Shown here in pieces: positions 8,432 through 28,554 of a stretch of DNA of 50,972 nt (its first letter is position 1; every line of letters begins with the position of its first letter). Position numbers and translations under genes: made by a program. The notes under the pieces are model-generated. The model made no database searches and was not told the origin of the DNA. It saw only the letters and a program-made list of their open reading frames with translations. Where the stretch lies: the NCBI GenBank assembly GCA_027020785.1, contig JALUVI010000069.1, positions 1 to 50,972 of the forward strand, given 5' to 3'. The DNA comes from Planctomycetota bacterium (GTDB lineage Bacteria > Planctomycetota > UBA1135).

Positions 8432-9512
8432 GGTCGAGGCGCAGCACGCGCCCGCCGGAGCCGGCCAGCCAGCCGGCTTCAGCGGTGTGGAAGCCGGACA
8501 CCGGACTCCCGTCCGAGTCGAGGAGCGGGCGCCACGTCCGCCCGCCGTCCTCGCTGACGTCGGTGCCGTTCGGGCCGGTGGCGAGGAAGACGCCGGCCTC
8601 GGCCCACCAGCACGCGCCGGAGCGGTAGCCGCCGGGCGGGACCTCGGCAGGGCTCCAGGTCCGCCCGCCGTCCTCGGTCCAGGCCGCGGTGGCGGCGCGG
8701 TCGTCGGGGCGACGCCAGTCGCCGCCCACCGCGACCCCGCGTCGCTCGTCGCGAAAGGCCAGGGCGAAGACGCCAGCCGAACCCTCTCCCCCGCCTCCGG
8801 ATCGGGTCAGCGGCGTCTCGGCGGCGGTCCAGGTGCGACCGCCGTCCTCGCTGCGCCAGACCCGGGCCACGGCGCCGCCGGTGCCGAGCCAGGCCAAGCC
8901 GCCGGGGGCGACGCGGAGCGACGAGCCGCTGGCGGCGAACACGTACTCGCCGGTCACCGGCGCAGGCAGCTCGTCGCCCGGGCCGACCCGGATCCAGGTC
9001 CGGCCGCCGTCCTCGGTCCGGGCCAGGAACAGCGCGCCGCCGACCGGGTCGCCGACCAGGAGGCCGTGCTGCCGGTCCCAGAAGGCGACGTCGTCCCAGA
9101 AGCCGTCGGGGTCTGCGTTGCGAGCCAGGGCGGTCCAGGTCCGGCCGGCGTCGGTGGTGCTCCACAGGCCGGAAGCGGCGCCAGGGCCGGCGGCGAGGGC
9201 GCAGGCGTTCCTCGCGTCCCAGGCCACGACGTCGCGGAAGTCGAGCTCGGCGCCGCCCGGAGGGGGCGGCAGCCGACGCCAGGTGCGCCCTCCGTCCTCC
9301 GTCAGGACGAGCGTACCGCCGCTGCCCGAGGCCCAGGCGACGACTGGACGGGGTACGGAGAGACCTCGAAAGGAGGCGCTGCCTCCCGGAGCGACGTCCG
9401 GCGTCGGCCGGGGGGCGCCATCCGGGAGGCGACAGGCGGCCACCGCGGCGCAGGAGAGGGCGAGGAGGCCGACCCCTCGCCGTCCCCGGCGCCGCCGGGC
9501 GGTGGGGATCAC
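8406..9512 (-). CDS. BNR/Ycf48-like beta-propeller lipoprotein
   Basis: Repeated (S/T)xDGGRTW motifs (at least 6 copies) in ORF 8406..9902. I prefer the GTG start at 9512 (VIPTARRRRGRRGVGLLALSCAAVAAC, signal plus lipobox), which overlaps the upstream stop as GTGA. Confidence 0.7.
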   Translation of the reverse strand: MIPTARRRRGRRGVGLLALSCAAVAACRLPDGAPRPTPDVAPGGSASFRGLSVPRPVVAWASGSGGTLVLTEDGGRTWRRLPPPPGGAELDFRDVVAWDARNACALAAGPGAASGLWSTTDAGRTWTALARNADPDGFWDDVAFWDRQHGLLVGDPVGGALFLARTEDGGRTWIRVGPGDELPAPVTGEYVFAASGSSLRVAPGGLAWLGTGGAVARVWRSEDGGRTWTAAETPLTRSGGGGEGSAGVFALAFRDERRGVAVGGDWRRPDDRAATAAWTEDGGRTWSPAEVPPGGYRSGACWWAEAGVFLATGPNGTDVSEDGGRTWRPLLDSDGSPVSGFHTAEAGWLAGSGGRVLRLDPTRAARSR

Positions 9513-9709
9513 TCGCCGAGCGAGGGGAAGTCCCGGTCCATGACGGTCTTGCGACCGTCCTTCTGGGCGTTCTGCATGGCCTGCTGGCACAGCTGCTTCA
9601 CGAGCTGCGAAAGGCGGGGGGCGACGTTGCCGGAGGTGTTCATGCCAGAGCTCTCCTTGATGTAGGTCTTCACCTTGCTCTGGACGACGAGGATGTCCTT
9701 GTCTGCCAT
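9509..9709 (-). CDS. bacterial histone-fold protein (singlet, 66 aa; DUF1931 / Bdellovibrio HBb-like)
   Basis: MADKDILVVQSKVKTYIKESSGMNTSGNVAPRLSQLVKQLCQQAMQNAQKDGRKTVMDRDFPSLGE. The helix-loop-long helix-loop layout and the DGRKTV(M/K)xxD motif are histone-fold hallmarks. An in-frame GTG at 9769 would add a 20-aa N-terminal tail. Confidence 0.7.
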   Translation of the reverse strand: MADKDILVVQSKVKTYIKESSGMNTSGNVAPRLSQLVKQLCQQAMQNAQKDGRKTVMDRDFPSLGE

Positions 9710-9790
9710 GGAATCGTGGTTCGGTGTGAACGCGCCGCTGGCGCGAGGGAGTGGAGGGAGGCGGCGCACCGCATCCCGAGAGACGGGCCG

Positions 9791-9796
9791 AGTCTA
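9791..9796 (-). promoter_or_regulatory. -10-like box TAGACT upstream of the histone-fold gene
   Basis: The reverse complement reads GCCGCTAGACTCGGCC. It implies a 5' UTR of about 75 nt to ATG 9709, or about 15 nt to GTG 9769. Confidence 0.35.
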
Positions 9797-9841
9797 GCGG
9801 CCCGAGGGGTCCGGAGAGGGCGGAACGGCCGGGAAACGGCC

Positions 9842-9871
9842 GGAGAGGCCCCGGAAGACCGGGACCTCTCC
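9842..9871 (-). terminator. GC-rich hairpin downstream of the DUF4382-like gene
   Basis: GGAGAGGCCCCGG-AAGA-CCGGGACCTCTCC forms 12 bp with one mismatch and a 4-nt loop. It lies 36 nt after the stop at 9907. The U-tract is weak. Confidence 0.5.
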
Positions 9872-9906
9872 TCGCATGCGTGCGCAAGCACTTGTGGACC
9901 AAGGAC

Positions 9907-13389: not shown

Positions 13390-14783
13390 CCCGCCCGACC
13401 CGCGTCCTCCTGGTCGGCGACCTCCACCTCGGCCTGCGGCCGCGCCGCCTGCCCGAGCGCGCAGCCGACGCCGACCGACTCGGACCGCGCGAAGCCCTGG
13501 AGCGCATCGTCACGACCGCCCGCGCGCTCGACGTGGACGCCGTCGCCTTCGCCGGCGACCTGATCCATCACCTGGAGGACCGCTTCGAAGCCCTGGGGCC
13601 CCTGAAGGGGGCGTGCCAGCGACTGGCGGAGCGCGGCGTCGTGGCGCTCGCGGTCGCCGGCAACCACGACGCCGTCGCCCTGAATCGCGTCGCCGGACTG
13701 CTCGGCGGCGAGGCCCTCCACGTCCTCGGCGCCGACGGCGGCTGGGAGGCGCGTTCCCTGGAACCGGAGGGCGCGACGGCACTGGAGTTCGTCGGCCGCT
13801 CCTTCGTCCGCGAGCACGAGACCGCGGACCCGATGGCTGCGTTCCCCGAGGCCCTCCGTGGGCCGACCTCGCCCGAGGGCCGGGTCCGCATCGGTCTGCT
13901 CCACACCCAGTTGGACGCCGCCGACGCCCCCTATGCTCCGACCACCCGTGCCGCCCTGGAGGCCACCGGCATGCCCTGGTTCCTGGGGCACGTCCACGAC
14001 CCCTCTCCCCTGTCCGGGTCCCGTCCGGTCGGCTACCTCGGTTCGGCCACCGCGTTGGCCGCCGACGAGTGTGGAGCGCGCGGCCCCTGGCTGGCCACGG
14101 TCGGCCCCGAGGGGTTGCGCGACCTGGTCCAACTGCCCCTGGCGCCGTTGCGTCGGGAACGGCTGGAACTCGACGTCGGCGTGCTGGAGGAGGCCGCCGA
14201 CCCGGTAGCGGAACTGGAGGCCCTGGTGGAGGAAGGGGCGACCCGGATCCTCGAGGCCATCGGCGCGGAAGGGCGCGCGACGATGCAGCGCCTGCTCGAC
14301 GTCGCCCCCGAGGCGGGCTCACTCGAGGAGGCGACCCTCGGCCCCCGCGCGGTCGGCCTGCGCCTGCGCCTGGTCGGCCGGACCCGCCACGCCGTCCGGC
14401 TGCGCGATGCCCTGGAGGCCCAGGGGTCGCTCCGGGAGTACGCCACCCATGGAGGAGGGATCCAGGCCTGGATCCAGAAGGTCGAGGTCGCCTTCGCGCG
14501 GAGCCACGACCTCGAGGAGTTGGCGCGCGGGAACGACCCCATCGCTCTGCTGGCGCGCAAGCTCCTCGCCATCGAGAGCGGCGACGCCGAGGCCGGCGAG
14601 CTGGTCGCCGGCGTCCTGGCCACGCGCCGCGGCGGGTTCGCCCGAGCCTGGCTCGACGCGCTGCCCCGCGGCGAGGGCGACGAACCGGTGGACGTCGAGG
14701 AGGAACTCCGGTCCGCCCTGCTCGAGGCGGGGCAGGAAGCCCTCGACGCGCTGCTGGCCCAGCGCGAGGAGGCCGCGGCATGA
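13386..14783 (+). CDS. SbcD/Mre11-like metallophosphoesterase (YhaO-like)
   Basis: Calcineurin-like motifs VLLVGDLHLG, FAGDL, AGNHD and GHVH. The long C-terminal extension is typical of the YhaO type. Confidence 0.8.
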   Translation: MTRPTRVLLVGDLHLGLRPRRLPERAADADRLGPREALERIVTTARALDVDAVAFAGDLIHHLEDRFEALGPLKGACQRLAERGVVALAVAGNHDAVALNRVAGLLGGEALHVLGADGGWEARSLEPEGATALEFVGRSFVREHETADPMAAFPEALRGPTSPEGRVRIGLLHTQLDAADAPYAPTTRAALEATGMPWFLGHVHDPSPLSGSRPVGYLGSATALAADECGARGPWLATVGPEGLRDLVQLPLAPLRRERLELDVGVLEEAADPVAELEALVEEGATRILEAIGAEGRATMQRLLDVAPEAGSLEEATLGPRAVGLRLRLVGRTRHAVRLRDALEAQGSLREYATHGGGIQAWIQKVEVAFARSHDLEELARGNDPIALLARKLLAIESGDAEAGELVAGVLATRRGGFARAWLDALPRGEGDEPVDVEEELRSALLEAGQEALDALLAQREEAAA

Positions 14784-17443
14784 GGTTCCTCGGTGCCGAG
14801 GTCGCTTCGGCGCACGACCTGCCCCACCCGTTCGGGTTCGCCGACCTGCCGGAGGGAGCCGTCGTCGTCGTCCACGGACCCAACGCCGCCGGCAAGAGCA
14901 CCCTGCTCGCGACCCTGCGCGCCTGCCTGTGGCCGGAGCTCGAGCCGCCTACGGACAAGCGCAAGAAGGCTCCGCTCGCAGCCCGCGGCGTGCGTGCGCG
15001 CATCGTGCTGGAACTGGCGGGGAGGCCCTGGGAAGTGCGCATCGAGGACGGTCGGCGCCGGGTGCTCGACGGGTTCCCGGCCGACCGGTTGCCGCCGGCC
15101 TCCCTGGCGCCGTGCTACCACCTGTCGCTGCGCGACCTGTTCGGTTGGGAGTCGGATGCGCCGCTCGCGGACCGGCTGCGGCGGGCCTGGGCCGGCGGGC
15201 TCGACCTCGACCGCATCCGCAAGGAGCGCTTCGACCACAAGTGGCCCCGCGACGACGCACGGAGGGCCCGAGAGGCGCGCGCCGCCGTCGTCGCGGCGAA
15301 GGACCGCCTCGCGAAGCTGGCGCACGACCTCGAGGAGCTCGAGGACGGCAGCCTGCAGCGCGCTCTGGAGGAGGCCCGACGTCGGGAGCGGCTGCACGAC
15401 GCCCTGACGCGGCGGGCGCAGGAGGTGCGCTCAGCCGCCCGGAAGGCCGCCGCCCTGGGCGGAGAGGCGCGGCGGCTGCGCAGCGAGGCCGACGCCGCCG
15501 CTGCGGCGGTCGGCGCGCCCCCGGAGTGGAACGACGTCTGGCAGGAATGGCTCGGCTCGGCCCGGGCCCGCCGCGAGGGCCTCGACGAGCACGACAAGGC
15601 CGTCGCCGCGGCTCGAGCCCGGGTCGCCGAAGCGGTGGCGGCGCTGCGCGGCGAGGCGCCGGACGACGCCGAACTGCCCGCGCCCGAGGTCCTGGCGGCG
15701 CTGGATCGCGAACTCGAAGCCTTCGCCGAGGCGCGGGCGCGGGCGCAGGCCGCCGCCGCCGAGCGGGAGGCGCTGGAGGCCTCGGTTCCCGCGGCGCGAG
15801 CGGACGCCGATGGGGAAGGCGGCCCCGCCGAAGCGGACCGAGACGGGGTCGCGCGCCTGCTGGAGCTCGCGGTGCGGGAGCACGTGCGCGCCGAGCAGGA
15901 CGCTGGCCCCCCCTCCGGGGCCGCCCGGCGTCGGATCGCGGTGGGCGCCGTGCTCCTGGTGGCCGGCGCCGCCCTCCTGCTCCCGGCCCTCGGGGTCGGG
16001 GGGCCAACGTCGGTGGCCGGACTCGTCGTCGCCACCCTGGCCGCCGTTTGGCTCGTCCTGCGCGGAGGGCGCGCGGGCGACGCCGAGGCGGAGGCGAAGT
16101 CGTGCACGAACACGGCGATCCGCTTGCGTCGCGCCCTGGGAGTCGGCGCCGAGGGCGGCGAGGACGAACTCGCCGAGGCCGCCCATGCACTGTGGCGCCG
16201 GGCCGCCGACGCCACCCTGGCGGAGCGCCAGCAGCACGTGGTCAGCGACCGGCTCCGCAAGCTCCGCCAGGCGGAGGAGGCGGCGGAGCGCGAACTGGCC
16301 CGGGCCCGGGACCGGTGGCGCTCCTGGGCCGAGGAGCACGGCTTCGTCGCCGGCGATGCGCCACTCGCCGTGGCCGAGTGGTTGCGCCGACTCGACGCCC
16401 TGCGGCAGGCGAGGAGCGGACTCCGCGAGGCCGAGGCGCGGCGCGCCGCCGCCGCCGATGCCGCGGCGGACCTGTGGGGGAAGCTCCGCGAGGCGCTCGG
16501 AGGCGCGGAGGATGCCTCACCGGAGATGGTCGAGGCGGCGCTGGCCCGACGCAAGGTGGAACACGAGGCGTGGCGGCAGCGTTCCCGGCGCGCCGAGGAG
16601 GCGGAGGCCCGGGCGGCCCAGGCGGAGGCGAAGTGGGCGGATCTCGAAGCATCGGCCCGCGACCTTCCCGAGGAATTCGGTGATTTTGCCGAATTTTCAT
16701 CCCTGGAGGCGCTAGCCGAGGCCCTCGAGGCCCGTGCCGAGACCCTCGCGGAGGCCGGGAAGCGCTATGCGGAACTCCAGGAGAGGAAGGCCCGGCTGGA
16801 GCGGGATCGGAAGGAGGCGGAGGGGGGACGGGCCCTCGAGGCGGCCGAGGCGGAGGCCGCCCGGCTGGAGGGCGAGGTCACCGAGGAGGCGCGGCGCGTG
16901 CTCCGCGCCGAGGCAGGCGCCCTGCTCCTCGAGCGGGTCGCCACGGACTACGAGCGCGACAACCGGCCCCGGGTGATCGCGCTGGCCGACGAGTTCACCC
17001 GGCGCTTCACCCGGGACCGCTACGGGCTCACCTTCGAGACGCGCGACGGCGGTGTGCCCGTCGCCCTGGACCTGGCCCGCGGCGGCGTCGTGGTCCCCCT
17101 CGAAGCGCTCTCCGACGGGACGCGGGCCCAGGTCCTCTTCGCCCTGCGACTGGCCTTCGTCGCCGCCCAGGAGGAGGAGGTCGGGGTCGAGCCGGCGCCG
17201 CTGTTCCTGGACGAGGTGCTGTCCACCGCCGACCCGGAGCGGTTCCGCGCCGTGGCCGAGGCGGTGGCCACGGAGGCGCGGAGCGGGCGGCAGGTGTTCT
17301 ATGCCACCGCGAACCCGAGCGACCTGGCCGTCTGGCGTGACACGGCCGCGACGGTCGGCGCCGAGCTCGCCGAGGTCGAGATCCCCCACCCGACCCGCGC
17401 GCGGGAGCCGCGCGCGGGCGGTGAGGGAGCGGGCGCTTCCTGA
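14780..17443 (+). CDS. SbcC/Rad50-like AAA ATPase with long coiled coils (YhaN-like)
   Basis: Walker A GPNAAGKST at the N-terminus. Signature LSDGTRAQV and Walker B LFLDEV at the C-terminus. Between them lies an Ala/Arg/Glu-rich coiled coil, with two hydrophobic segments (about 15937-16068) near the middle. Confidence 0.8.
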   Translation: MRFLGAEVASAHDLPHPFGFADLPEGAVVVVHGPNAAGKSTLLATLRACLWPELEPPTDKRKKAPLAARGVRARIVLELAGRPWEVRIEDGRRRVLDGFPADRLPPASLAPCYHLSLRDLFGWESDAPLADRLRRAWAGGLDLDRIRKERFDHKWPRDDARRAREARAAVVAAKDRLAKLAHDLEELEDGSLQRALEEARRRERLHDALTRRAQEVRSAARKAAALGGEARRLRSEADAAAAAVGAPPEWNDVWQEWLGSARARREGLDEHDKAVAAARARVAEAVAALRGEAPDDAELPAPEVLAALDRELEAFAEARARAQAAAAEREALEASVPAARADADGEGGPAEADRDGVARLLELAVREHVRAEQDAGPPSGAARRRIAVGAVLLVAGAALLLPALGVGGPTSVAGLVVATLAAVWLVLRGGRAGDAEAEAKSCTNTAIRLRRALGVGAEGGEDELAEAAHALWRRAADATLAERQQHVVSDRLRKLRQAEEAAERELARARDRWRSWAEEHGFVAGDAPLAVAEWLRRLDALRQARSGLREAEARRAAAADAAADLWGKLREALGGAEDASPEMVEAALARRKVEHEAWRQRSRRAEEAEARAAQAEAKWADLEASARDLPEEFGDFAEFSSLEALAEALEARAETLAEAGKRYAELQERKARLERDRKEAEGGRALEAAEAEAARLEGEVTEEARRVLRAEAGALLLERVATDYERDNRPRVIALADEFTRRFTRDRYGLTFETRDGGVPVALDLARGGVVVPLEALSDGTRAQVLFALRLAFVAAQEEEVGVEPAPLFLDEVLSTADPERFRAVAEAVATEARSGRQVFYATANPSDLAVWRDTAATVGAELAEVEIPHPTRAREPRAGGEGAGAS

Positions 17444-21886: not shown

Positions 21887-24028
21887 ATGAACCCGCTGGT
21901 CCGCAACCACGCCCTCTGGACCGGGATGCGCCGCATCCTGCTCCTGGGCGTCGGTGCGCTCCTCCTGATGTCGGGCTACCGACTCGCCTTCGTCCTGCGC
22001 TATGCGCACCCCGAGCTCTGGCGCGACTTCCTCGCCGACCTCCCCGCGGCCTTCCTGCGCGGCGCCCTGCACGACCTGCGCATCGTGATCGTGTTCCTGG
22101 CGCCCCTGGCCCTGTCGCTGGCGTGGCTGCGCGACCGCGGCGAGGCCTCGTGGCGGCGCTGGCTGCGTTTCGCCTTCTGGTGGAGCTTCGTCGGCATCGT
22201 CCTCCTGGTCACCGTCCTCACCGCGGACATGGTGTTCTACAGCTACTTCCAGAGCCACTTCACCGTGCTGGCCTGGGGCTTCCTCGAGGACGACCTGCGC
22301 GCCGTGACCCGCGGCGCCATGAAGATCTATCCGATTCCGCTCTACCTGCTGCTGATCGGCATCGCAGCGACGGCGCTGTTCCGCCTGCTCCAGCGCGCCT
22401 GGACCCCCGGCGACTTCCTCCAGCCCCACCACCGTACGCCGCCGCCCCACCTGGTCCAGCGCCAGCTCCTGCGCCTGCTCACGTCGTTCGGCGCCGGCAT
22501 CCTGCTGCTCGTGGTGTGGCCGGCGGCGGCGACGCCGCGCGAGGATCCGCGTCCGGCGGCCCCCTTCGTGCACGAGATCCCGATGAACGGCGTCGAGGCC
22601 TTCGCCGACGCCGTGTGGACCCGATTGCGCGAGGAACCGCTGTCGGTGGCGACCCGGATGGGCTTCGGGCGAGACCCCGACGAAGCCCTGGCCGTCTGGG
22701 CCGGCTCCGCCCCCGACGGCCGCCCGGAACCGGGCGGCCTCCTCACCGCCCTGCCGGAACCCGCGATGACACCGCGCCCGACCTGGGACGCGCCGCCCCA
22801 CGTCGTCGTCGTCGTGATGGAGAGCTTCTCGCTCCACCTGCTGCGCTGGCAGGGCCCCGAGTTCGACCTGCTCGGCCCGCTCGCGAAGTACTGGGACCGC
22901 GGCATCCTCTGGCGGCGCTTCCTCCCCAGCGACAACGGCTCGGCCGGCTCCATCCTGTCGCTGCTCTCGGGGCTGCCCTATCGCCCCGGCACCAAACAGC
23001 TGTCGCAGTCCGAGGACTTCCACGACCGCGCGCTGCCGACTGCACCCGCGCGCTGGTTCCGCACGTGGGGCTACCACACCCGCTTCGTCTACGGCGGTCC
23101 CCTGACCTGGCGCAATCTCGGCGAATTCGCCCCGTTGCAGGGCTTCGACGAGGTGGTGGGCCAGGAGGCGTTGCTCGCGGAACTCGGCCTGCGCCGCGAG
23201 GACGCCGCCGGCGAATGGGGCGTCTGGGACGAACACCTGTTCCGCGCCCTCGCCGACCGCCTGGAGTCGGCCGAAGGGCCGACGTTCCTGATGAGCTTCA
23301 CGACCAGCAACCACCCGCCGCACGAGTTGCCGGAAGGAACGGAGCTCCCCACGCTGACCCCGCCGCCGGGACTGCTGGAGCGGAACGGCGGACCACTGGA
23401 CGAGCTGCAGCACCTGCAGCTGCGCACCTATCAGTACGCCTGCCACCGCCTTGGACTGTTCCTCGACGAACTCGACCGCAAGGGCCTGCTCGACCACACC
23501 GTCGTCGCCGTGACCGGCGACCACACCATCGGCACGGGGATCCCCTTCAGCCACCGCGAGGCGCTGCTCGAGCGCGCCGTGCCGTTCCTGTTGTTGGTCC
23601 CCGACCGGGTGCGCCGCGAGCTCGTACCCGACGAAACGACGCCCGGCGGACATCCGGACGTCGTTCCCACCCTGATCCAGGCGGCGGGACTCGGTGGTCG
23701 CGGCTGGCGCGGGCTCGGGCACAGCCTGCTGGACCGCACAGCCAAACCGCTCGCGTCCAACCCCGCCGGCATCGTGATCGGCCGGGTCGGCGCGGTGCTG
23801 GAGTTCCCGGACGGCTACGGGACGATGACCTGGATGGACGACGGCCCGGGACTCGAGCCCTGTCCACCGTCGCCGGCGCACGAGCGCCTCCTCCTCCGCA
23901 GCAGGGCCTTCCTGGCGCTGGCCGACTGGTTGCTCTGGGAGGCGGCGCGCCCCGGGCCCGAGGCGTCACGGCAGGGTGTCCGGGCGATGGAAGCCGTCGA
24001 GGTCGGGAAGGCCGCGACTTCCGACTGA
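21887..24028 (+). CDS. LTA-synthase / phosphoglycerol-transferase family membrane sulfatase-fold protein
   Basis: N-terminal multi-TM region followed by an extracytoplasmic sulfatase-like domain (VVVVMESF, TSNHPP, VAVTGDH). Confidence 0.75.
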   Translation: MNPLVRNHALWTGMRRILLLGVGALLLMSGYRLAFVLRYAHPELWRDFLADLPAAFLRGALHDLRIVIVFLAPLALSLAWLRDRGEASWRRWLRFAFWWSFVGIVLLVTVLTADMVFYSYFQSHFTVLAWGFLEDDLRAVTRGAMKIYPIPLYLLLIGIAATALFRLLQRAWTPGDFLQPHHRTPPPHLVQRQLLRLLTSFGAGILLLVVWPAAATPREDPRPAAPFVHEIPMNGVEAFADAVWTRLREEPLSVATRMGFGRDPDEALAVWAGSAPDGRPEPGGLLTALPEPAMTPRPTWDAPPHVVVVVMESFSLHLLRWQGPEFDLLGPLAKYWDRGILWRRFLPSDNGSAGSILSLLSGLPYRPGTKQLSQSEDFHDRALPTAPARWFRTWGYHTRFVYGGPLTWRNLGEFAPLQGFDEVVGQEALLAELGLRREDAAGEWGVWDEHLFRALADRLESAEGPTFLMSFTTSNHPPHELPEGTELPTLTPPPGLLERNGGPLDELQHLQLRTYQYACHRLGLFLDELDRKGLLDHTVVAVTGDHTIGTGIPFSHREALLERAVPFLLLVPDRVRRELVPDETTPGGHPDVVPTLIQAAGLGGRGWRGLGHSLLDRTAKPLASNPAGIVIGRVGAVLEFPDGYGTMTWMDDGPGLEPCPPSPAHERLLLRSRAFLALADWLLWEAARPGPEASRQGVRAMEAVEVGKAATSD

Positions 24029-24069: not shown

Positions 24070-25086
24070 ATGCCCGTATTCCTCCGTCTGCTCTTCGTCC
24101 TCCTCGCGCCCTTCGCCTGCGCCGGGGCCGCGCGCGCCTCCGCACTGCAGTGACGGCCCGCCCCCGGAGGCGGTCCGCCTCCGAGCTACGCCGGTCCCGG
24201 TGACGCCATGGGCCCCGGCGGCGCCTCTCCCGCCACCCCGGCCGCTCCCGCCGGCCCGGCGACCCCGGCCGCCCCCACCACACCCACCGGCCCCGCCGGC
24301 ACGACCGGCGCCGGCCCGACCACCGGCGGCGGCACCCTGCCGACCGAACACGGCAAGACCGCCAAGACCCTGCTCCGGATGCAGTGGAACTACCCGGTGT
24401 TCCGGCTCCCCGGCGAGGACGCCGTCCCCGAGGAGCGCAGCGGCACCGTGGCCCGGGCGGTGCGCTCGGCCCTGCCGAGGGAACGGGCCTTCCTCGAGCT
24501 CGCCGGCGACGACCGGCGCCCGCTGCTGGTGCTGCGCGAGTGCCTCTGGTGCAACGGCACCGACGACGCACTGTTGAGCCGCACCGAAGACAACGCCCGC
24601 ACCCTCCTCATGGCGCAGTGGTTCCACTGCGTGAAGCTGCCGCCCGACGTACTCGAGGAGGACCACCCGTTCCGCAACGTCTTCGCGGGCGACGACCCGC
24701 CGCACCTGATCCTCTGCGACTGGGACGGCTCCGGCGTCGTCACCCTGAAGGGCGACCAGTCGCGCACCGAACTGTGGGAGGCGATGGAGACCGTCCTCGA
24801 GCGCAACTACGTCGTCGACGTGAAGCGCAAACTGCGCGAGTGGGACCGCCTCATCGCCGACTACGACATGGCCGATGAGGAAGTGCTCCGGCTGGAGGCG
24901 CAGCTCGACCTCGCCATCGAGAAGTACGGGCCCAAGCACGCCAAGGTCCGGAAGTTGCGCAAGCAGCTCGAACGCGCACACGAGGACTTCGACAGGTTGA
25001 AGGCCCGTGAAGAGGAACTGCGCCGTCTCCCGCTGAAGGCCTCCGGCGAGGAGGACACCGCACGGTCCGACCGCGACGCCGGCTGA
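24070..25086 (+). CDS. cassette gene A1: secreted protein with signal peptide, Sec-28, Pro/Ala/Thr-rich linker, thioredoxin-fold CxxC domain and C-terminal coiled coil (TGA 24151-24153 read as selenocysteine)
   Basis: The short ORF MPVFLRLLFVLLAPFACAGAARASALQ* (24070-24153) is in frame with track ORF 24208..25086, and no other stop lies between them. The TGA aligns with Cys in paralog A2 (ASALQ-U-RPAPGGGPPP versus RAAAQ-C-PGPPPPP). Without read-through the protein would lack the signal peptide that A2 has. Confidence 0.7.
24165..24183 (+). promoter_or_regulatory. SECIS element (fdhF-like) for A1
   Basis: CGGAGGC-[GGUCC]-GCCUCCG forms a 7-8 bp perfect stem. Loop residues G24173 and U24174 are +23/+24 from the U of UGA, identical to the E. 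coli fdhF spacing. The Cys paralog has no equivalent hairpin. Confidence 0.75.
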
Positions 25087-25102
25087 CCCGAGGCGTCCCT
25101 CC

Positions 25103-26263
25103 GTGACGCACTCGTTCGCCGCCTTCGCCCTGCTCCTGGCCGTCGCTCCCAGCGCGGCGGCGCAGGAGGAGCCCCCCGGCGCCGACGACCCCTACACGCG
25201 GGGCGAACCCGAAGCCGTCGCCGCGGCCGGCTACCGTTCCCTCGGCCCCTTCACGCTGGGCGACGGCGTCACCACCACCAAGGTGGAAGAGGCGCTCGGC
25301 GGGGTCGAGGTGCGCTGGATCGAGACCGAGCACTTCCGCATCGGCTCCACGCTGGAGACCTGGAAGCTGGAGGACCGAGAGGAGAAGGCACTCCTCGCCA
25401 AGGAGCTCCGAGCGTTGCGGCAACTCCTTCCGGATGCGCCGAAGCGGGTGCGCAAGCTGGATCCGTGGCTGCGCGCCCACCTCTATGCGCTCCGGGCCGA
25501 ACGCGTCTACGACAGCGTCGCGGCCGTCCTCGGCGCCGACGGCGAGTCCCTCGAGCCCCTGCTCGGCGCCGGCGACCGGTTCGTCCTCCTGCTCTTCGCC
25601 AAGGAGAGCGAGTTCGGGCGCTTCGCCGAGCGATTCATCGGGCCGGAGGCTTCCCGTGGTTCCTTGCGCCACTACTTCCCCCGCTCACGCGTCCTGCTCT
25701 ACGCCGCCCATGCGGAGACCGACGCCTTCGCGCGCTCCGACCTCACCCTGCACTGCGCCGTCGCCTACAACCTCGCCATCTACCTGCTGGACGGCTATCG
25801 GGGCTACGGTTTCGCGCTGCCCGCCTGGCTGCCGGTCGGCTTCGGCCACCGGGTCGCGCGCAGCGTGAGCCCGAAGCAGAACTACTTCACGGACAGCCGA
25901 CTGTTCACCGCCGACGACGTCGCGGAGTGGCACTGGGCGCCTCGAGTCCGAGCGCGCGTCGCCAACGACTACTTCCCGAGCGCGCGGAAGCTCGGCGCAT
26001 GGGACGACCAGCTCGGCCTGAAGTTCGCGGACCACATGATGGCGTGGTCGCGGGTGGACCACCTGGCGCAGGCCGAACCGGAAGGCTTCGCACGTTTCCT
26101 TCGGGCCATGAAGGCGCCGTTCCCGCCCCGGGAATACCCGATCCCTCCGGAACGCCTGCTCGAGCGCCAATGGGAAGCCCTCCAGGCGGGCCTCGGCTGG
26201 ACGCCCGAGGAATGGGACGAAGCCTGGCGCGAGTGGGTGCTCGCGACCTATCCCAGGCGCTGA
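25103..26263 (+). CDS. cassette gene B1: secreted about 385-aa protein of unknown function
   Basis: GTG start and signal peptide VTHSFAAFALLLAVAPSAAAQ. Blocks conserved with B2: DPYTRGEP, AGYRSxGPF, WIETEHFRIG, DPWLRAHL, LLDGYRG, PAWLxVGxGH, WAPRVRARV, ADHMxAWSRVDHL, GWTPEEWDxAWRxWVLATYPRR. No HExxH motif. Confidence 0.7.
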   Translation: MTHSFAAFALLLAVAPSAAAQEEPPGADDPYTRGEPEAVAAAGYRSLGPFTLGDGVTTTKVEEALGGVEVRWIETEHFRIGSTLETWKLEDREEKALLAKELRALRQLLPDAPKRVRKLDPWLRAHLYALRAERVYDSVAAVLGADGESLEPLLGAGDRFVLLLFAKESEFGRFAERFIGPEASRGSLRHYFPRSRVLLYAAHAETDAFARSDLTLHCAVAYNLAIYLLDGYRGYGFALPAWLPVGFGHRVARSVSPKQNYFTDSRLFTADDVAEWHWAPRVRARVANDYFPSARKLGAWDDQLGLKFADHMMAWSRVDHLAQAEPEGFARFLRAMKAPFPPREYPIPPERLLERQWEALQAGLGWTPEEWDEAWREWVLATYPRR

Positions 26264-26354
26264 CGCAGCACCGAGCCCCCTACGGAACGGCGTTCCACGC
26301 GGGAAGCGCCCCAAGAAACCGAACGAAGCGGGGGTTTCCCGCCCATCCGAAGGG

Positions 26355-26360
26355 CATACT
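26355..26360 (+). promoter_or_regulatory. -10-like box CATACT, 7 nt upstream of ATG 26368 (cassette copy 2)
   Basis: GGGCATACTGGAGGGCATG. Confidence 0.4.
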
Positions 26361-26367
26361 GGAGGGC

Positions 26368-27387
26368 ATGACGCGCTCCCTGTTCTTCCTGGCCTTCCTC
26401 GCCGCGAGCCTGGTCGCGGACCGGGCCGCCGCCCAGTGCCCCGGCCCGCCACCTCCACCCGGCATCTCCACCGACACCCCGCAGTCCGGGATGAAGCCGG
26501 ACTTCGGCCCCGTGGACGATGCGCCGGCCACCACCGGCGCGCGGCCCACCCGACCGAGCACGCCGAGCACGCCGAACGCGCCGAGTGCGCCGGGCGCACC
26601 CAACCGCCCCGCGACTCCGGCCCTCCCCGCCACGCCTGCCGGCACCGCCGGTGCGCCGGCCATGACCGGCGGTGAACAGCTCCCGACCGCGCACGGCCCG
26701 AGCGCGCGCACCCTGCTGACCGTGGCCTGGACCTACCCGGTCCTCCTCGCGGACGCGGTGGACGGTCGCCGGACCTACGCCCGCCAGGCGCCTCGGGCCC
26801 TGCCCCGGGACGAGGCCTTCCGCCGCCTCGCCGGCGACGACCCCAGGCCGCTCCTGGTCCTCCGCGAGTGCGCGTACTGCCTCGGCAGCGAACGCGCCCT
26901 CCTGCGCGGCGGCGAGGACGACACCAAGACCTTCCTGCTGTCGCAGTGGTTCCATTGCGTGCGTTTGCCCAAGGAGGTCCTACGTTCCGACCACCCGTTC
27001 CACGAAGTGTTCGGTACGCCGGCACCCCACCTGCTCCTGGCGTCGCCCGATGGAACCGAGGTCGTCGCCATGCCGGGCGACCTCTCACGGGTCCAGCTCT
27101 GGAAGGCGATGGAGACCATGCTGGCCCAACACTACGACGGCCCGCTCCAGCAGCGGCTGCGCGGCCTGAACCGTCTGGTCGGCAAGTACGACGCGGTGGA
27201 CGAGGAGATCCGGGCGCTGCTCCATCAGCAGGAGCTCGCCGCCGAGAAGTACGGACCGCGGTCGGCCAAGGCGAAGAGGCTGGCGCGCCGTCTGGCCAAG
27301 GCCCGGGCCGAACGCGAGGAGCTGGACCGCCAGCGGGACGAGCTCCTCGACCTGCCGCTCCGGACGCCCGCCGCCCGGAACCCCTAG
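26368..27387 (+). CDS. cassette gene A2: Cys paralog of A1 (signal peptide, Cys-24, Pro-rich linker, thioredoxin-fold CAYC domain, coiled coil)
   Basis: MTRSLFFLAFLAASLVADRAAAQCPGPPPPP... Shared blocks with A1: LPTxHG, PLLVLREC..C, QWFHCV.LP, DHPF, LW.AMET.L, EKYGP. This is the real part of ORF 25465..27387. Confidence 0.75.
   Translation: MTRSLFFLAFLAASLVADRAAAQCPGPPPPPGISTDTPQSGMKPDFGPVDDAPATTGARPTRPSTPSTPNAPSAPGAPNRPATPALPATPAGTAGAPAMTGGEQLPTAHGPSARTLLTVAWTYPVLLADAVDGRRTYARQAPRALPRDEAFRRLAGDDPRPLLVLRECAYCLGSERALLRGGEDDTKTFLLSQWFHCVRLPKEVLRSDHPFHEVFGTPAPHLLLASPDGTEVVAMPGDLSRVQLWKAMETMLAQHYDGPLQQRLRGLNRLVGKYDAVDEEIRALLHQQELAAEKYGPRSAKAKRLARRLAKARAEREELDRQRDELLDLPLRTPAARNP
26554..26598 (+). 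repeat. five tandem degenerate 9-bp repeats inside the A2 linker
   Basis: ccgagcacg ccgagcacg ccgaacgcg ccgagtgcg ccgggcgca, encoding PST-PST-PNA-PSA-PGA. Confidence 0.7.
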
Positions 27388-27399
27388 ACCGGGCTCTGC

Positions 27400-28554
27400 G
27401 TGCTCGCCCTCACCGGCCTGCTCCTGGCCGCCATGAGCGCCCTCCCGCCGCAGACGGCGGGGGGCGCCGGGGAACGAGACCCCTACACCAGGGGCGAGCC
27501 GCAGGCGATGCAAAGGGCCGGCTATCGCTCCTTCGGCCCGTTCCGACTGTTCCGCGACGTCACCAGCGCCAAGGTGGACGAGGCCCTGGGCGACGTCGGC
27601 CTGCACTGGATCGAGACCGAGCACTTCCGAATCGGGTGCTCCCTGGGAGCGATGCGGCCGAGCGGCAGCCGGGAGCGCAAGGCCCTGGCCGCGGAACTCG
27701 AGACCCTGCGCGAACGCCTGCCGGGCGTCCCGCGACGGCCTTCCCGCGTGGATCCGTGGCTACGCGCCCACCTCTGGGCGGCCCGCGCCGAGCGGACCTA
27801 CGAACGCTTCGCCGCGCTGGCCTGCCCCGACCCCGAGCGTGACGCCCGACGGATCGATTCCCAGCGGTCCTACGTCCTCCTCCTGTTCGGCGACGCGGCG
27901 CAGGTCGGGCGGTTCCGCGACGCCTTCCTCGGCGAAGGGTTGTCCGGCGAGGCCTTCCGCTGGTCCATTCCGGTCGGCCGCGTCGAGCTCTACGCCACGC
28001 ACGGGGCGGCCCCGGCCTACCTGGACTCGGAGCTCGCCCTGCGCTGCAACGTCACCTATGCCCTGACCCGCAATCTACTCGACGGCTATCGGGGGCACAC
28101 CTTCCCGGTCCCGGCCTGGCTGTCGGTCGGACTCGGACACCTCCTGGCGCGCGAGATCAGCCCGCGCTACGACTACTTCGCCGAGGACCGCGACTACGGA
28201 CCGGATGACGTACGGGTCTGGGACTGGGCTCCACGCGTGCGGGCCCGCGTGTCCCACGGCATGGCGAGGAGCGGACGCGCGCTGGCCGCCCCCTTCGACG
28301 ACGCGGACTTCTCATACGCCGATCACATGACGGCCTGGTCGCGAGTGGACCACCTGGTGAGCACCGACCCGGCGGGCTTCGCCCGATTCGTGCACGCGCT
28401 GAAGGCGCCGTTCGGACCGGACGAGGAACCGATCACCGTGGAGGCTCTGCATCAGCGCCACTGGCAGGCGCTCCGCGAAGCCTTCGGCTGGACGCCGGAG
28501 GAATGGGACCGGGCTTGGCGGGCGTGGGTGCTCGCGACCTACCCCAGGCGCTAG
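27400..28554 (+). CDS. cassette gene B2: paralog of B1
   Basis: ORF 27400..28554 with a GTG start and signal-like N-terminus VLALTGLLLAAMSALPP. It shares the conserved blocks listed for B1. Confidence 0.7.
   Translation: MLALTGLLLAAMSALPPQTAGGAGERDPYTRGEPQAMQRAGYRSFGPFRLFRDVTSAKVDEALGDVGLHWIETEHFRIGCSLGAMRPSGSRERKALAAELETLRERLPGVPRRPSRVDPWLRAHLWAARAERTYERFAALACPDPERDARRIDSQRSYVLLLFGDAAQVGRFRDAFLGEGLSGEAFRWSIPVGRVELYATHGAAPAYLDSELALRCNVTYALTRNLLDGYRGHTFPVPAWLSVGLGHLLAREISPRYDYFAEDRDYGPDDVRVWDWAPRVRARVSHGMARSGRALAAPFDDADFSYADHMTAWSRVDHLVSTDPAGFARFVHALKAPFGPDEEPITVEALHQRHWQALREAFGWTPEEWDRAWRAWVLATYPRR

What the first reader, a model, noticed from the sequence alone, without database searches (positions are those of the whole stretch)
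24070..25086. In-frame UGA at codon 28 aligned to a Cys in the adjacent paralog, with an fdhF-like SECIS: an unannotated secreted selenoprotein
A 27-codon signal-peptide ORF (24070-24150) ends in TGA (24151-24153). It continues in the same frame, with no other stop, into track ORF 24208..25086. The TGA sits exactly where paralog A2 (26368..27387) has Cys: ASALQ-U-RPAPGGGPPP versus RAAAQ-C-PGPPPPP.

Immediately downstream, CGGAGGC-GGUCC-GCCUCCG (24165-24183) forms a perfect 7-8 bp stem. Its loop G and U are at +23/+24 from the U of UGA. This is the geometry required by SelB at the E. coli fdhF SECIS. The Cys paralog has no such hairpin at the equivalent place.

Read-through restores the signal peptide that the 24208 start would lack. 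Sec would lie within a few residues of the mature N-terminus, ahead of a Pro-rich linker and a CxxC thioredoxin-fold domain. I do not recognise this arrangement from any described selenoprotein family.
Basis: partly seen in the sequence, partly recalled or inferred. Interest (0 to 1): 0.85.

Follow-up and report, generated by a model that had tools for sequence, protein, structure and literature searches.

The report
Unannotated exported selenoprotein of Planctomycetota
The stop-like TGA at 24151 almost certainly encodes selenocysteine near the front of an exported thioredoxin-like protein, in a family found in dozens of Planctomycetota genomes and absent from the selenoprotein lists I checked; most members carry two adjacent selenocysteine codons.

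Summary
ATG 24070 opens a 27-codon signal peptide. TGA 24151-24153 lies in frame with the called ORF 24208-25086. An 8-bp hairpin (24165-24183) puts a loop G-U at +23/+24 from the UGA.

In 79 related genome loci I found 76 homologous genes with the same layout: signal peptide, in-frame TGA, Gly/Pro-rich linker, CxxC domain. The motifs are UU in 44 genes, UC in 23, CU in 4 and a single U in 5, including the window. Cys-only paralogs carry TGC/TGT at that column.

A hairpin with an (A/G)GU loop at a fixed distance is present in 55 of 75 TGA genes. It appears in 6% of synonymous-codon shuffles and in 0 of 7 Cys forms. Its stems covary.

A close relative keeps the TGA and an identical hairpin, although its signal peptide has diverged. 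Other loci carry in-frame-TGA genes of known selenoprotein families on the same contigs.

The family has no match in Pfam or NCBIfam and is not in a 2026 list of 119 prokaryotic selenoprotein families.

The Sec machinery of this genome could not be checked. The proposed function is inferred, not shown: a tethered N-terminal selenol working with a thioredoxin-fold domain and a collagenase-fold partner.

The parts
24070..24150 (+). True start codon and 27-codon signal peptide of A1 (MPVFLRLLFVLLAPFACAGAARASALQ)
   Evidence: GC3 is 0.89 in this frame. An equivalent in-frame signal peptide precedes the TGA in 76 homologs. The ortholog in L082 has a diverged signal peptide that stays in frame.
24151..24153 (+). 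In-frame UGA read as selenocysteine (residue 28 of the precursor)
   Evidence: It aligns with TGC at 26437 in A2 and with the U/C dyad of the whole family. Position 1 is U in 72 of 76 genes and C in the other 4, and C in the Cys-only forms.
24165..24183 (+). SECIS hairpin: 5' arm 24165-24172, loop GUC 24173-24175, 3' arm 24176-24183; loop G at +23 and U at +24
   Evidence: It is the MFE and centroid fold and the window's best match to covariance model R1 (24148-24195, 25.2 bits). It is 100% identical in L081 and L082 while the flanks differ. The family-wide counterpart covaries.
24154..24336 (+). Gly/Pro/Ala/Thr-rich linker, including the conserved SYAGPGD motif; the annotated ATG 24208 lies inside it
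   Evidence: Across the family the linker is 31-81 residues and about 70% G/P/A/S/T. The motif [YW]xGPxD occurs in 27 of 76 genes. There is no conserved alternative start: 23 of 76 genes have no in-frame ATG here. The AF2 model has low confidence in this stretch.
24337..24807 (+). Conserved globular region with a thioredoxin-like fold; CxxC at 24541-24543 and 24550-24552, third conserved Cys (WFHC) at 24628-24630
   Evidence: Invariant columns R-E-C-x-x-C-x-G and W-F-x-C. The AF2 model has pLDDT 85 with strand-helix-strand...strand-strand-helix order. Foldseek finds only thioredoxin-fold proteins: ERp19, Trx, the C-terminal domain of DsbD, PDI.
24820..25023 (+). C-terminal long helical hairpin (coiled-coil-like)
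   Evidence: AF2 helices 205-240 and 245-272 of P0001, pLDDT about 97. Weak keratin-type coiled-coil matches only in the PDB sequence search.
25084..25086 (+). Real stop codon of A1
   Evidence: The reading frame ends here in all homologs.
25103..26263 (+). B1: exported partner protein with a gluzincin (collagenase-like) fold and no conserved HExxH
   Evidence: It lies directly downstream of the A gene in 72 of 75 loci. AF2 pLDDT is 88. Foldseek top hits are M9 collagenase peptidase domains (E = 4e-4). Invariant motifs are DPYT, WxETxHF, DPWLRAHLxAxRxE and PxWxxG.
26368..27387 (+). A2: Cys paralog of A1 (TGC at 26437-26439, no SECIS)
   Evidence: Its ortholog is P0016, found in L081-L084.
27400..28554 (+). 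B2: paralog of B1, partner of A2
   Evidence: 52% identical to B1.

Best explanation
A1 (24070-25086) is one gene for an exported selenoprotein, not a 292-residue protein starting at 24208.

How the gene is read:
- Translation starts at ATG 24070 (inferred).
- At UGA 24151, SelB carrying Sec-tRNA(Sec) binds the hairpin at 24165-24183. Its apical G-U lies 23/24 nt from the UGA. Selenocysteine is inserted (inferred from comparative evidence).
- The signal peptide directs export and is cut near ARA/ASA, which leaves Sec about 3-5 residues from the mature N-terminus (inferred).

The mature protein has four parts:
- an N-terminal selenol;
- a flexible Gly/Pro-rich tether of about 60 residues;
- a thioredoxin-fold domain with an invariant RECxxC motif and a third conserved Cys;
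- a C-terminal helical hairpin.

Most likely mechanism (inferred, not shown): the tethered Sec is the reactive end of an extracytoplasmic redox relay, and it exchanges with the protein's own CxxC centre. The protein probably works with the always-adjacent protein B. B has a collagenase-like fold and may dock on, or process, the proline-rich tether.

The tandem A2-B2 copy is the Cys version. It probably serves as a selenium-independent backup.

A1 belongs to a compact family restricted to Planctomycetota, in which the N-terminal position is U or C. In most members a second UGA follows directly (UU).
For: - TGA is kept in frame between a signal peptide and the conserved domain in 76 genes from 75 genomes, including the cultured Saltatorellus ferox Poly30. 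The counts are 44 UU, 23 UC, 4 CU and 5 single U.
- Cys-only homologs have C at the same column after an A-x-A|Q signal-peptide end.
- Peptide motifs downstream of the TGA are conserved, such as SYAGPGD, so that stretch is translated.
- A hairpin with an (A/G)GU(U/C) loop starts at +22 or +25 from the last UGA. The strict test is passed by 55 of 75 genes, against 6.3% of synonymous-codon shuffles and 0 of 7 Cys forms.
- The rare Ser codon AGT supplies the loop in 29 of 75 genes, although it makes up 4.5% of Ser codons elsewhere in these genes. The next residue varies (W/S/L/F) while its first base T is kept.
- The stems covary: score 0.457 against 0.171, 0 of 500 shuffles as high, and higher than all slid registers.
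- The ortholog in L081/L082 keeps the TGA and an identical 33-nt hairpin region while its signal peptide has diverged.
- Other in-frame-TGA genes of known selenoprotein families lie on the same contigs as family members: Prx in L021, deiodinase-like and HMA in L040, Thioredoxin_7 in L046.
- There is no conserved alternative start downstream of the TGA.
- Fold models support the domain assignments, and the A-B gene pairing is conserved.
Against: - No selA, selB, selD or tRNA-Sec was seen in the 51-kb window or in the 1.2 Mb of flanks. The rest of this genome could not be searched.
- No Rfam family matches the hairpin.
- Folding energy of the region does not differ from shuffles, whether dinucleotide or codon shuffles.
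- The window's hairpin scores only 25 bits (E about 0.06) against the family model.
- A Gly-Gly-Gly-Pro-Pro-Pro coding stretch is partly self-complementary by nature.
- There are no expression or selenium-labelling data.
- The function and the role of B rest on fold resemblance only. The Foldseek E-value for the thioredoxin fold is weak (0.011). B lacks the catalytic HExxH motif.
Confidence: 0.85

Rival explanations
1. The TGA is a real stop. Either it ends a nonsense-mutated pseudogene, or the 27-codon ORF is spurious and the protein starts at ATG 24208 and stays in the cytoplasm.
For: This is how gene callers read it. The database protein P0001 starts at 24208, and most homologs in the databases are N-terminally truncated 'hypothetical proteins'. 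A stop-free 18-codon stretch is expected by chance at 72% GC.
Against: - The TGA and the in-frame signal peptide are kept in 76 genes across deep divergence.
- Cys homologs read straight through the same column.
- The downstream linker motifs are conserved.
- The ATG at 24208 is not conserved: 23 of 76 genes have no in-frame ATG before the domain.
- The ortholog keeps the TGA while its neighbouring codons changed.
Confidence: 0.04
2. The UGA is read through, but not as selenocysteine. A near-cognate tRNA inserts Trp, Cys, Arg or Gly, and the hairpin merely slows the ribosome or hinders release-factor access.
For: The Sec machinery was not demonstrated for this genome. Two adjacent UGAs served by one hairpin is not in the 2026 inventory of bacterial selenoproteins.
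Against: - The column alternates specifically with Cys, including UC and CU dyads.
- The hairpin has the conserved apical G-U and the spacing expected of a SelB-type SECIS, not merely stability.
- Canonical selenoprotein genes (Prx TxxU, deiodinase-like T-U-PPF) with similar hairpins lie on the same contigs as family members.
Confidence: 0.05
3. The 27-codon ORF is a regulatory leader peptide. It ends at the TGA (a TGATGA double stop in most relatives), and its translation controls re-initiation on the main ORF.
For: TGATGA resembles a tandem terminator, and a structured element follows it.
Against: - The leader has the shape of a signal peptide and is always in the same frame as the domain, despite variable linker lengths.
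- Cys forms fuse the two parts into one ORF.
- The main ORF would lack both a start codon and a signal peptide in many genomes, although partner B has a signal peptide.
Confidence: 0.03

Closest known systems
E. coli fdhF-type bacterial SECIS (SelB-dependent UGA recoding)
   Same: A hairpin lies inside the coding region immediately 3' of the UGA. Its apical loop carries G-U, at +23/+24 in the window. The element is present with TGA and absent from Cys forms. The fdhF numbering (G23/U24) is from my own knowledge.
   Different: - No bulged U was identified.
- The family uses three spacings, with the loop G at +23, +26 or +29 from the first dyad codon.
- In 44 genes one hairpin follows two adjacent UGAs.
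- No Rfam model matches.
Exported thioredoxin-fold selenoproteins (DsbA-like, DsbG-like, thiol:disulfide interchange protein, Thioredoxin_7/DsbH-like with UxxC)
   Same: They combine a signal peptide, a thioredoxin fold and a redox motif, and they have Sec/Cys alternation among homologs (inventory in PMC13188914). A UxxC Thioredoxin_7 gene sits next to the A-B pair in L046.
   Different: - In those families Sec replaces the first Cys of the CxxC motif. Here the CxxC stays Cys-Cys, and Sec sits about 130 residues upstream, at the mature N-terminus on a disordered tether.
- No Pfam or NCBIfam thioredoxin model matches.
C-terminal Gly-Cys-Sec-Gly redox tail of mammalian thioredoxin reductase
   Same: In both, a vicinal chalcogen dyad sits on a flexible terminal extension next to a dithiol centre. 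Three family members read literally G-C-U-G (L049, L055, L072).
   Different: - The dyad is N-terminal here, not C-terminal.
- The protein is an exported thioredoxin-fold protein, not a cytosolic flavoenzyme.
- The window's own gene has a single U followed by Arg.
- The resemblance is an analogy from memory, not a tested relationship.
Bacterial selenoproteins with terminal CU dyads (SaoC Cys-Cys-COOH selenoprotein, KCU-star family, MbdU)
   Same: They have adjacent Cys-Sec at a protein terminus and are found mostly by noticing truncated gene calls (PMC13188914).
   Different: - Those dyads are C-terminal and linked to organometallic or metal chemistry.
- None is listed with UU.
- None has this domain architecture or taxonomic range.
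M9 collagenase / gluzincin peptidase domain (for partner B)
   Same: The overall fold matches: Foldseek probability 1.00, E = 4e-4 to 5e-3 against Grimontia, Vibrio and Clostridium collagenases. Collagenases act on Gly/Pro-rich chains, and protein A has such a tether.
   Different: - The HExxH zinc motif is not conserved (H-C-A-V-A in the window).
- There is no sequence-level match to any PDB chain or Pfam family.

Membership tests
Bacterial selenoprotein (SECIS/SelB-dependent UGA recoding) | In-frame UGA conserved among orthologs, with intact coding sequence on both sides | tested here: met
   76 genes in 75 genomes. The close ortholog in L082 keeps the TGA.
Bacterial selenoprotein (SECIS/SelB-dependent UGA recoding) | Homologs with Cys at the UGA column | tested here: met
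   Window A2 (TGC at 26437), L003, L009, L011, L063, L073, L081 and about 17 further Cys-only representatives.
Bacterial selenoprotein (SECIS/SelB-dependent UGA recoding) | Hairpin just 3' of the UGA, with G(U) in the apical loop at the required spacing, under selection as RNA | tested here: met
   Window loop G/U at +23/+24. Family: 55 of 75 against 6.3% of codon shuffles; covariation 0.457 against 0.171.
Bacterial selenoprotein (SECIS/SelB-dependent UGA recoding) | Genome encodes selA, selB, selD and tRNA-Sec | not testable with these tools
Indirect support: other known-family selenoprotein genes lie on three sister contigs, and some Planctomycetes have full Sec gene sets (PMC4807772).
Bacterial selenoprotein (SECIS/SelB-dependent UGA recoding) | Selenium shown in the protein | not testable with these tools
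   Needs 75Se labelling or mass spectrometry.
Thioredoxin-fold CxxC oxidoreductase | Thioredoxin fold, with CxxC at the start of the helix that follows the first core strand | tested here: met
   In the AF2 model, strand 106-110 is followed by C112xxC115 and then a helix. The order is strand/helix/strand...strand/strand/helix. All Foldseek hits are thioredoxin-fold proteins, though the best E-value is only 0.011.
Thioredoxin-fold CxxC oxidoreductase | Match to a curated thioredoxin-superfamily sequence model | tested here: not met
   No hit in Pfam, NCBIfam or the PDB sequence search.
Thioredoxin-reductase-type GCUG tail | Vicinal Cys-Sec dyad at the C-terminal end of a pyridine-nucleotide disulfide oxidoreductase | tested here: not met
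   The window has a single U followed by R. The dyad is N-terminal and there is no flavoprotein domain. This is an analogy only.
Bacterial lipoprotein (lipobox Cys) | [LVI][ASTVI][GAS]-C lipobox, with the Cys as first mature residue | tested here: not met
   The residues before U/C are P-Q (54 genes), P-G (15) or A-Q. Q at position -1 does not fit a lipobox. Cys forms end A-x-A|Q-C, which fits signal peptidase I.
M9/M1 gluzincin metallopeptidase (partner B) | Gluzincin fold | tested here: met
   Foldseek against collagenases 8jt1_A, 7wss_A, 7zbv and 4ar9_A: probability 1.00.
M9/M1 gluzincin metallopeptidase (partner B) | HExxH plus a downstream Glu as zinc ligands | tested here: not met
   No invariant HExxH in 27 homologs. 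The invariant residues lie elsewhere: E74, H77, H126, R131, E133.

The most novel reading that the evidence does not exclude
In 44 of the 76 family members, one SECIS hairpin serves two directly adjacent UGA codons. That would give a vicinal Sec-Sec pair, able to form a diselenide, at the mature N-terminus of an exported protein. It would be a natural UU dyad in bacteria, and the 2026 inventory of 119 families lists no such motif. It would also show that SelB in these organisms accepts at least two or three UGA-to-loop spacings (G at +23, +26 or +29). The window's gene would be the single-Sec derivative, with the canonical +23 spacing. The collagenase-fold partner B might bind or cut the proline-rich tether.
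Probability: 0.55. Interest if true: 0.9.

Novelty: new variant of a known kind. Interest (0 to 1): 0.8.

Why it matters
- **A new family.** This would add a phylum-wide selenoprotein family to the known set. I found 368 clusters at 50% identity among 1.84 billion representative proteins. Current annotation truncates essentially all TGA-bearing members to signal-less 'hypothetical proteins'.
- **An unusual position for Sec.** Sec sits outside the CxxC motif, on a disordered N-terminal tether of an exported thioredoxin-fold protein. This arrangement is not among the listed bacterial families.
- **A natural test of SECIS spacing.** The UU, UC and CU series sharing one SECIS tests how strictly bacterial SelB reads the UGA-to-SECIS distance, and whether two consecutive Sec insertions are possible. 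That question bears on engineering multi-Sec proteins.
- **It is testable.** One carrier, Saltatorellus ferox Poly30, is in culture and has a complete genome.
- **A Sec/Cys isoform pair.** The tandem Sec (A1-B1) and Cys (A2-B2) copies in the window look like a selenium-dependent and selenium-independent pair.

Tried and rejected
- **Folding energy as a test.** Dinucleotide shuffles gave z = 0.11 and -1.48. Codon shuffles across 75 genes gave a mean z of -0.23. This is uninformative in Gly/Pro-rich, G+C-rich coding sequence. I replaced it with a test based on hairpin position and loop sequence.
- **Rfam.** There was no SECIS match at the gathering threshold or at E <= 10. I do not know whether Rfam holds a model for this type of bacterial SECIS, so the negative says little.
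- **Covariance model R1.** It recovered the family sites. It did not realign the GGU-loop class, so pairing stayed at 69%. Its 16 extra weak hits were inspected and are noise in non-coding frames.
- **Sec machinery.** ARAGORN and motif scans for SelA, SelB and SelD over the window and all flanks found nothing. Pfam on ten further window genes found only housekeeping genes; the only translational GTPase is LepA, not SelB.
- **Extending the contig.** Look-ups of the genes at the window's ends failed because the products are not on record.
- **Lipoprotein idea.** I considered that U/C is a lipobox Cys and rejected it on the -1 residue.
- **Other in-frame TGAs in the window.** One candidate at 14321 on the minus strand looks like antisense sequence and was not pursued.
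- **PDB sequence searches.** Profiles of A and B returned nothing useful.
- **Literature.** Searches for Planctomycetes selenoproteins, tandem UGA and Saltatorellus found no description of this family. One relevant paper (PMC12013261) is not held.
Full report
**1. Observation**

The window has 72% G+C. ATG 24070 opens MPVFLRLLFVLLAPFACAGAARASALQ. TGA follows at 24151-24153. The same frame continues without a stop through ATG 24208 to the stop at 25084-25086.

The paralog at 26368-27387 reads ...ADRAAAQ-C-PGPPPPP, with TGC at 26437. CGGAGGCG-GUC-CGCCUCCG (24165-24183) is the minimum-energy and centroid fold. Its loop G and U lie at +23 and +24 from the U of UGA. The A2 stretch after its Cys codon has no structure (-4.2 kcal/mol).

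So the description is accurate. Taken alone it is not statistically compelling. Shuffles fold about as well, and Gly (GGN) followed by Pro (CCN) codons are self-complementary by nature.

**2. Comparative evidence**

A protein search found 549 homologs, nearly all unnamed proteins from Planctomycetota assemblies. The full-length ones have a signal peptide followed by Q-C-GGYGGPPPPPP or similar. Most of the others start abruptly inside a Gly/Pro-rich stretch and have no signal peptide. That is the usual signature of gene calls cut short by an unrecognised Sec codon.

A scan of one genome per species returned 79 loci, among them the complete genome of the cultured Saltatorellus ferox Poly30. I walked upstream in frame from the conserved domain in each locus.

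- 76 genes in 75 genomes have a signal peptide, then an in-frame TGA, then the linker (raw S. ferox sequence).
- The motif is a two-residue dyad: UU in 44 genes, UC in 23, CU in 4.
- A single U occurs in 5 genes: the window (Q-U-R), L005, L010, L021 and L038.
- The preceding residues are P-Q in 54 genes and P-G in 15.
- Cys-only forms, both in the loci and among 50%-identity representatives, carry C at dyad position 1 after an A-x-A|Q signal-peptide end.
- Motifs downstream of the TGA are conserved, such as [YW]xGPxD (SYAGPGD in the window).
- 23 of 76 genes have no in-frame ATG between the TGA and the domain. A downstream start is therefore not a conserved feature.

**3. The RNA element**

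In most genes the best local hairpin has a 6-11 bp stem and a loop of AGUU, AGUUC, GGU, GGUC, GUU or GUC. The loop starts at +22 or +25 from the last UGA.

Measured from dyad position 1, the loop G lies at +26 in 43 genes, +29 in 10 and +23 in 5, including the window. It always moves in steps of three. For UU genes this puts G-U at +23/+24 from the second UGA and +26/+27 from the first.

The stem sequences differ widely between genomes: GGCGCCC/GGGCGCC, GGUGGUA/UACCGCC, GUAGCUCG/CGAGCUAC, UUACCAG/CUGGUGA, GGAAGC/GCUUCC.

- On a plain MAFFT alignment the covariation score is 0.457, against 0.171 in shuffles. None of 500 shuffles reached it, and every slid register scored lower. A model-based alignment gave a similar result.
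- The strict criterion was at least 6 consecutive base pairs and a 3-5-nt loop containing GU that starts at +20 to +27. It is met by 55 of 75 genes. Shuffles that keep the protein sequence and codon usage meet it 6.3% of the time, with at most 12 of 75 genes in any of 200 replicates.
- None of 7 Cys-only forms meets it.
- The loop is often supplied by the Ser codon AGU, in 29 of 75 genes at codon 8. Elsewhere in these genes AGU makes up 4.5% of Ser codons. The residue after it varies (W, S, L, F) while its first base U is kept. The constraint therefore acts on the RNA, not the peptide.
- Overall folding energy does not discriminate real from shuffled sequences.
- Rfam has no match.

**4. The window's own lineage**

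Contigs from two related assemblies carry the same order of genes, A1-B1-A2-B2 followed by a GSDH-family dehydrogenase gene. Their A1 ortholog reads MLVSYRLLSVLLAACAVPDVARAAVPQ-U-RPGPGGGPPPSYAGPGDAMGP.

The signal peptide has diverged at many positions but stays in frame. The TGA is kept, and the stretch from CCCCGGAGGCGGTCCGCCTCCGAGCTACGCCGG onward is identical. This rules out a sequencing error or a recent nonsense mutation.

**5. Is selenocysteine used in these organisms?**

No tRNA-Sec, SelA, SelB or SelD was found in the window or the flanks. The rest of the genome could not be searched.

There is indirect support. I scanned the flanks for in-frame TGA with coding signal on both sides and a SECIS-like hairpin. 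It found genes that Pfam assigns to known selenoprotein families, with U at the catalytic Cys position:

- an AhpC/Prx gene with T-x-x-U (L021);
- a deiodinase-like gene with T-U-PPF (L040);
- an HMA-domain gene (L040);
- a Thioredoxin_7 gene with UxxC, immediately downstream of the A-B pair (L046).

Full Sec gene sets are documented in some other Planctomycetes (PMC4807772).

**6. What the protein is**

- No Pfam or NCBIfam model matches.
- Invariant residues include R-E-C-x-x-C-x-G and W-F-x-C.
- The AlphaFold model built on 90 sequences has pLDDT 85 and pTM 0.76. It shows a disordered N-terminus, a thioredoxin-type core with the CxxC after the first core strand, and a long C-terminal helical hairpin.
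- Foldseek returns only thioredoxin-fold proteins (ERp19, thioredoxins, the C-terminal domain of DsbD, PDI domains). The E-values are weak, 0.011 at best.

The gene directly downstream, B, is present in 72 of 75 loci. B has its own signal peptide. Its invariant motifs are DPYT, WxETxHF, DPWLRAHLxAxRxE and PxWxxG. Its model has pLDDT 88. Its fold matches M9 collagenase peptidase domains, and M1 aminopeptidases more weakly. The HExxH motif is not conserved.

The upstream LtaS-like gene and the downstream GSDH-family dehydrogenase gene are shared only with the closest clade.

**7. Mechanism**

Shown or strongly supported: the UGA is a sense codon, a SECIS-type hairpin is under selection, Sec and Cys alternate at the column, and the A-B module is conserved.

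Inferred:
- the start at 24070;
- export, and cleavage near ARA/ASA that leaves Sec close to the mature N-terminus;
- redox exchange between the tethered selenol and the CxxC centre;
- B docking on, or processing, the proline-rich tether;
- A2-B2 as a selenium-independent backup.

**8. Comparison with what is known, and novelty**

The decoding works like fdhF-type recoding, and the protein is a thioredoxin-fold redox protein. Neither is new in kind. The following appears undescribed.

- **The family itself.** It is absent from Pfam, from NCBIfam (June 2026) and from the 119-family inventory in PMC13188914. It is not mentioned in the GOS, deep-Sep or BSepDB papers I could read.
- **The placement of Sec.** It lies outside the CxxC motif, at the N-terminal end of a disordered tether.
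- **The UU dyad.** In most members two adjacent UGA codons are followed by a single hairpin. No UU motif is listed in that inventory.

The family is compact: 368 clusters at 50% identity, of which 235 score E <= 1e-10. I rate it a new variant of a known kind.

**9. Verdict**

My confidence that A1 is a genuine selenoprotein gene starting at 24070 is about 0.85. The main gaps are the unchecked Sec machinery and the lack of any experimental data. The functional model is tentative.

Noticed in passing
L001-L079 (e.g. L077:9947-9952, L031:4561-4566): 44 of 76 family genes have two directly adjacent in-frame TGA codons (TGATGA) followed by a single hairpin. The loop G is at +23 from the second UGA and +26 from the first. 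UC genes keep the +26 spacing for their only UGA.
   Followed up: partly
L046:10747-11142: A Thioredoxin_7 gene with an in-frame TGA giving a UxxC motif, and an 8-bp hairpin (loop GUG at +22). It lies immediately downstream of the A-B pair and is a second selenoprotein gene in the same neighbourhood.
   Followed up: partly
L040:1420-1863 and L040:1929-3146: Two neighbouring in-frame-TGA genes about 7 kb upstream of the family gene. One is an HMA-domain protein with GLG-U-QGT. The other is an EF-hand plus deiodinase-like protein with FGSYT-U-PPF.
   Followed up: partly
L021:~15275-16039: A peroxiredoxin-glutaredoxin fusion with U at the peroxidatic Cys position (FYPLDFTPT-U-SRE).
   Followed up: partly
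L048, L049, L051, L055, L072 (e.g. L049:2300-2370): This subgroup (APG-UU or APG-CU-G, the latter reading literally GCUG) lacks the usual hairpin at about +26. It has instead a conserved CCGGACC-GGUC-GGUCCGG hairpin about 50 nt downstream, and a GGGCC/GGCCC hairpin at +32. The spacing is unusual if this is their SECIS.
   Followed up: no
window 25103-26263 and 27400-28554: Partner proteins B1 and B2 have a collagenase-like (M9 gluzincin) fold and no conserved HExxH. They have no Pfam, NCBIfam or PDB sequence match and are always adjacent to the selenoprotein gene.
   Followed up: partly
window 24070-28554 compared with L003, L009, L011: The tandem A-B/A-B duplication is ordered Sec form then Cys form in the window. 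It is ordered Cys form then UU form in L003, L009 and L011. In both cases it lies between an LtaS-like gene and a GSDH-family gene.
   Followed up: no
L027:~9200-9900: A second family paralog with neither Cys nor Sec after its signal peptide, and a run of about 20 Gly codons in the linker.
   Followed up: no
window 14321 (- strand): The only other in-frame TGA in the window with high GC3 on both sides. The translation looks like antisense sequence.
   Followed up: no
window 21887-24028: The upstream gene is a membrane LtaS/phosphoglycerol-transferase-like protein of the sulfatase superfamily. It ends 41 nt before the A1 start. The intergenic sequence CCGATGGCATACT.GGG.CATG is conserved in L082.
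   Followed up: no
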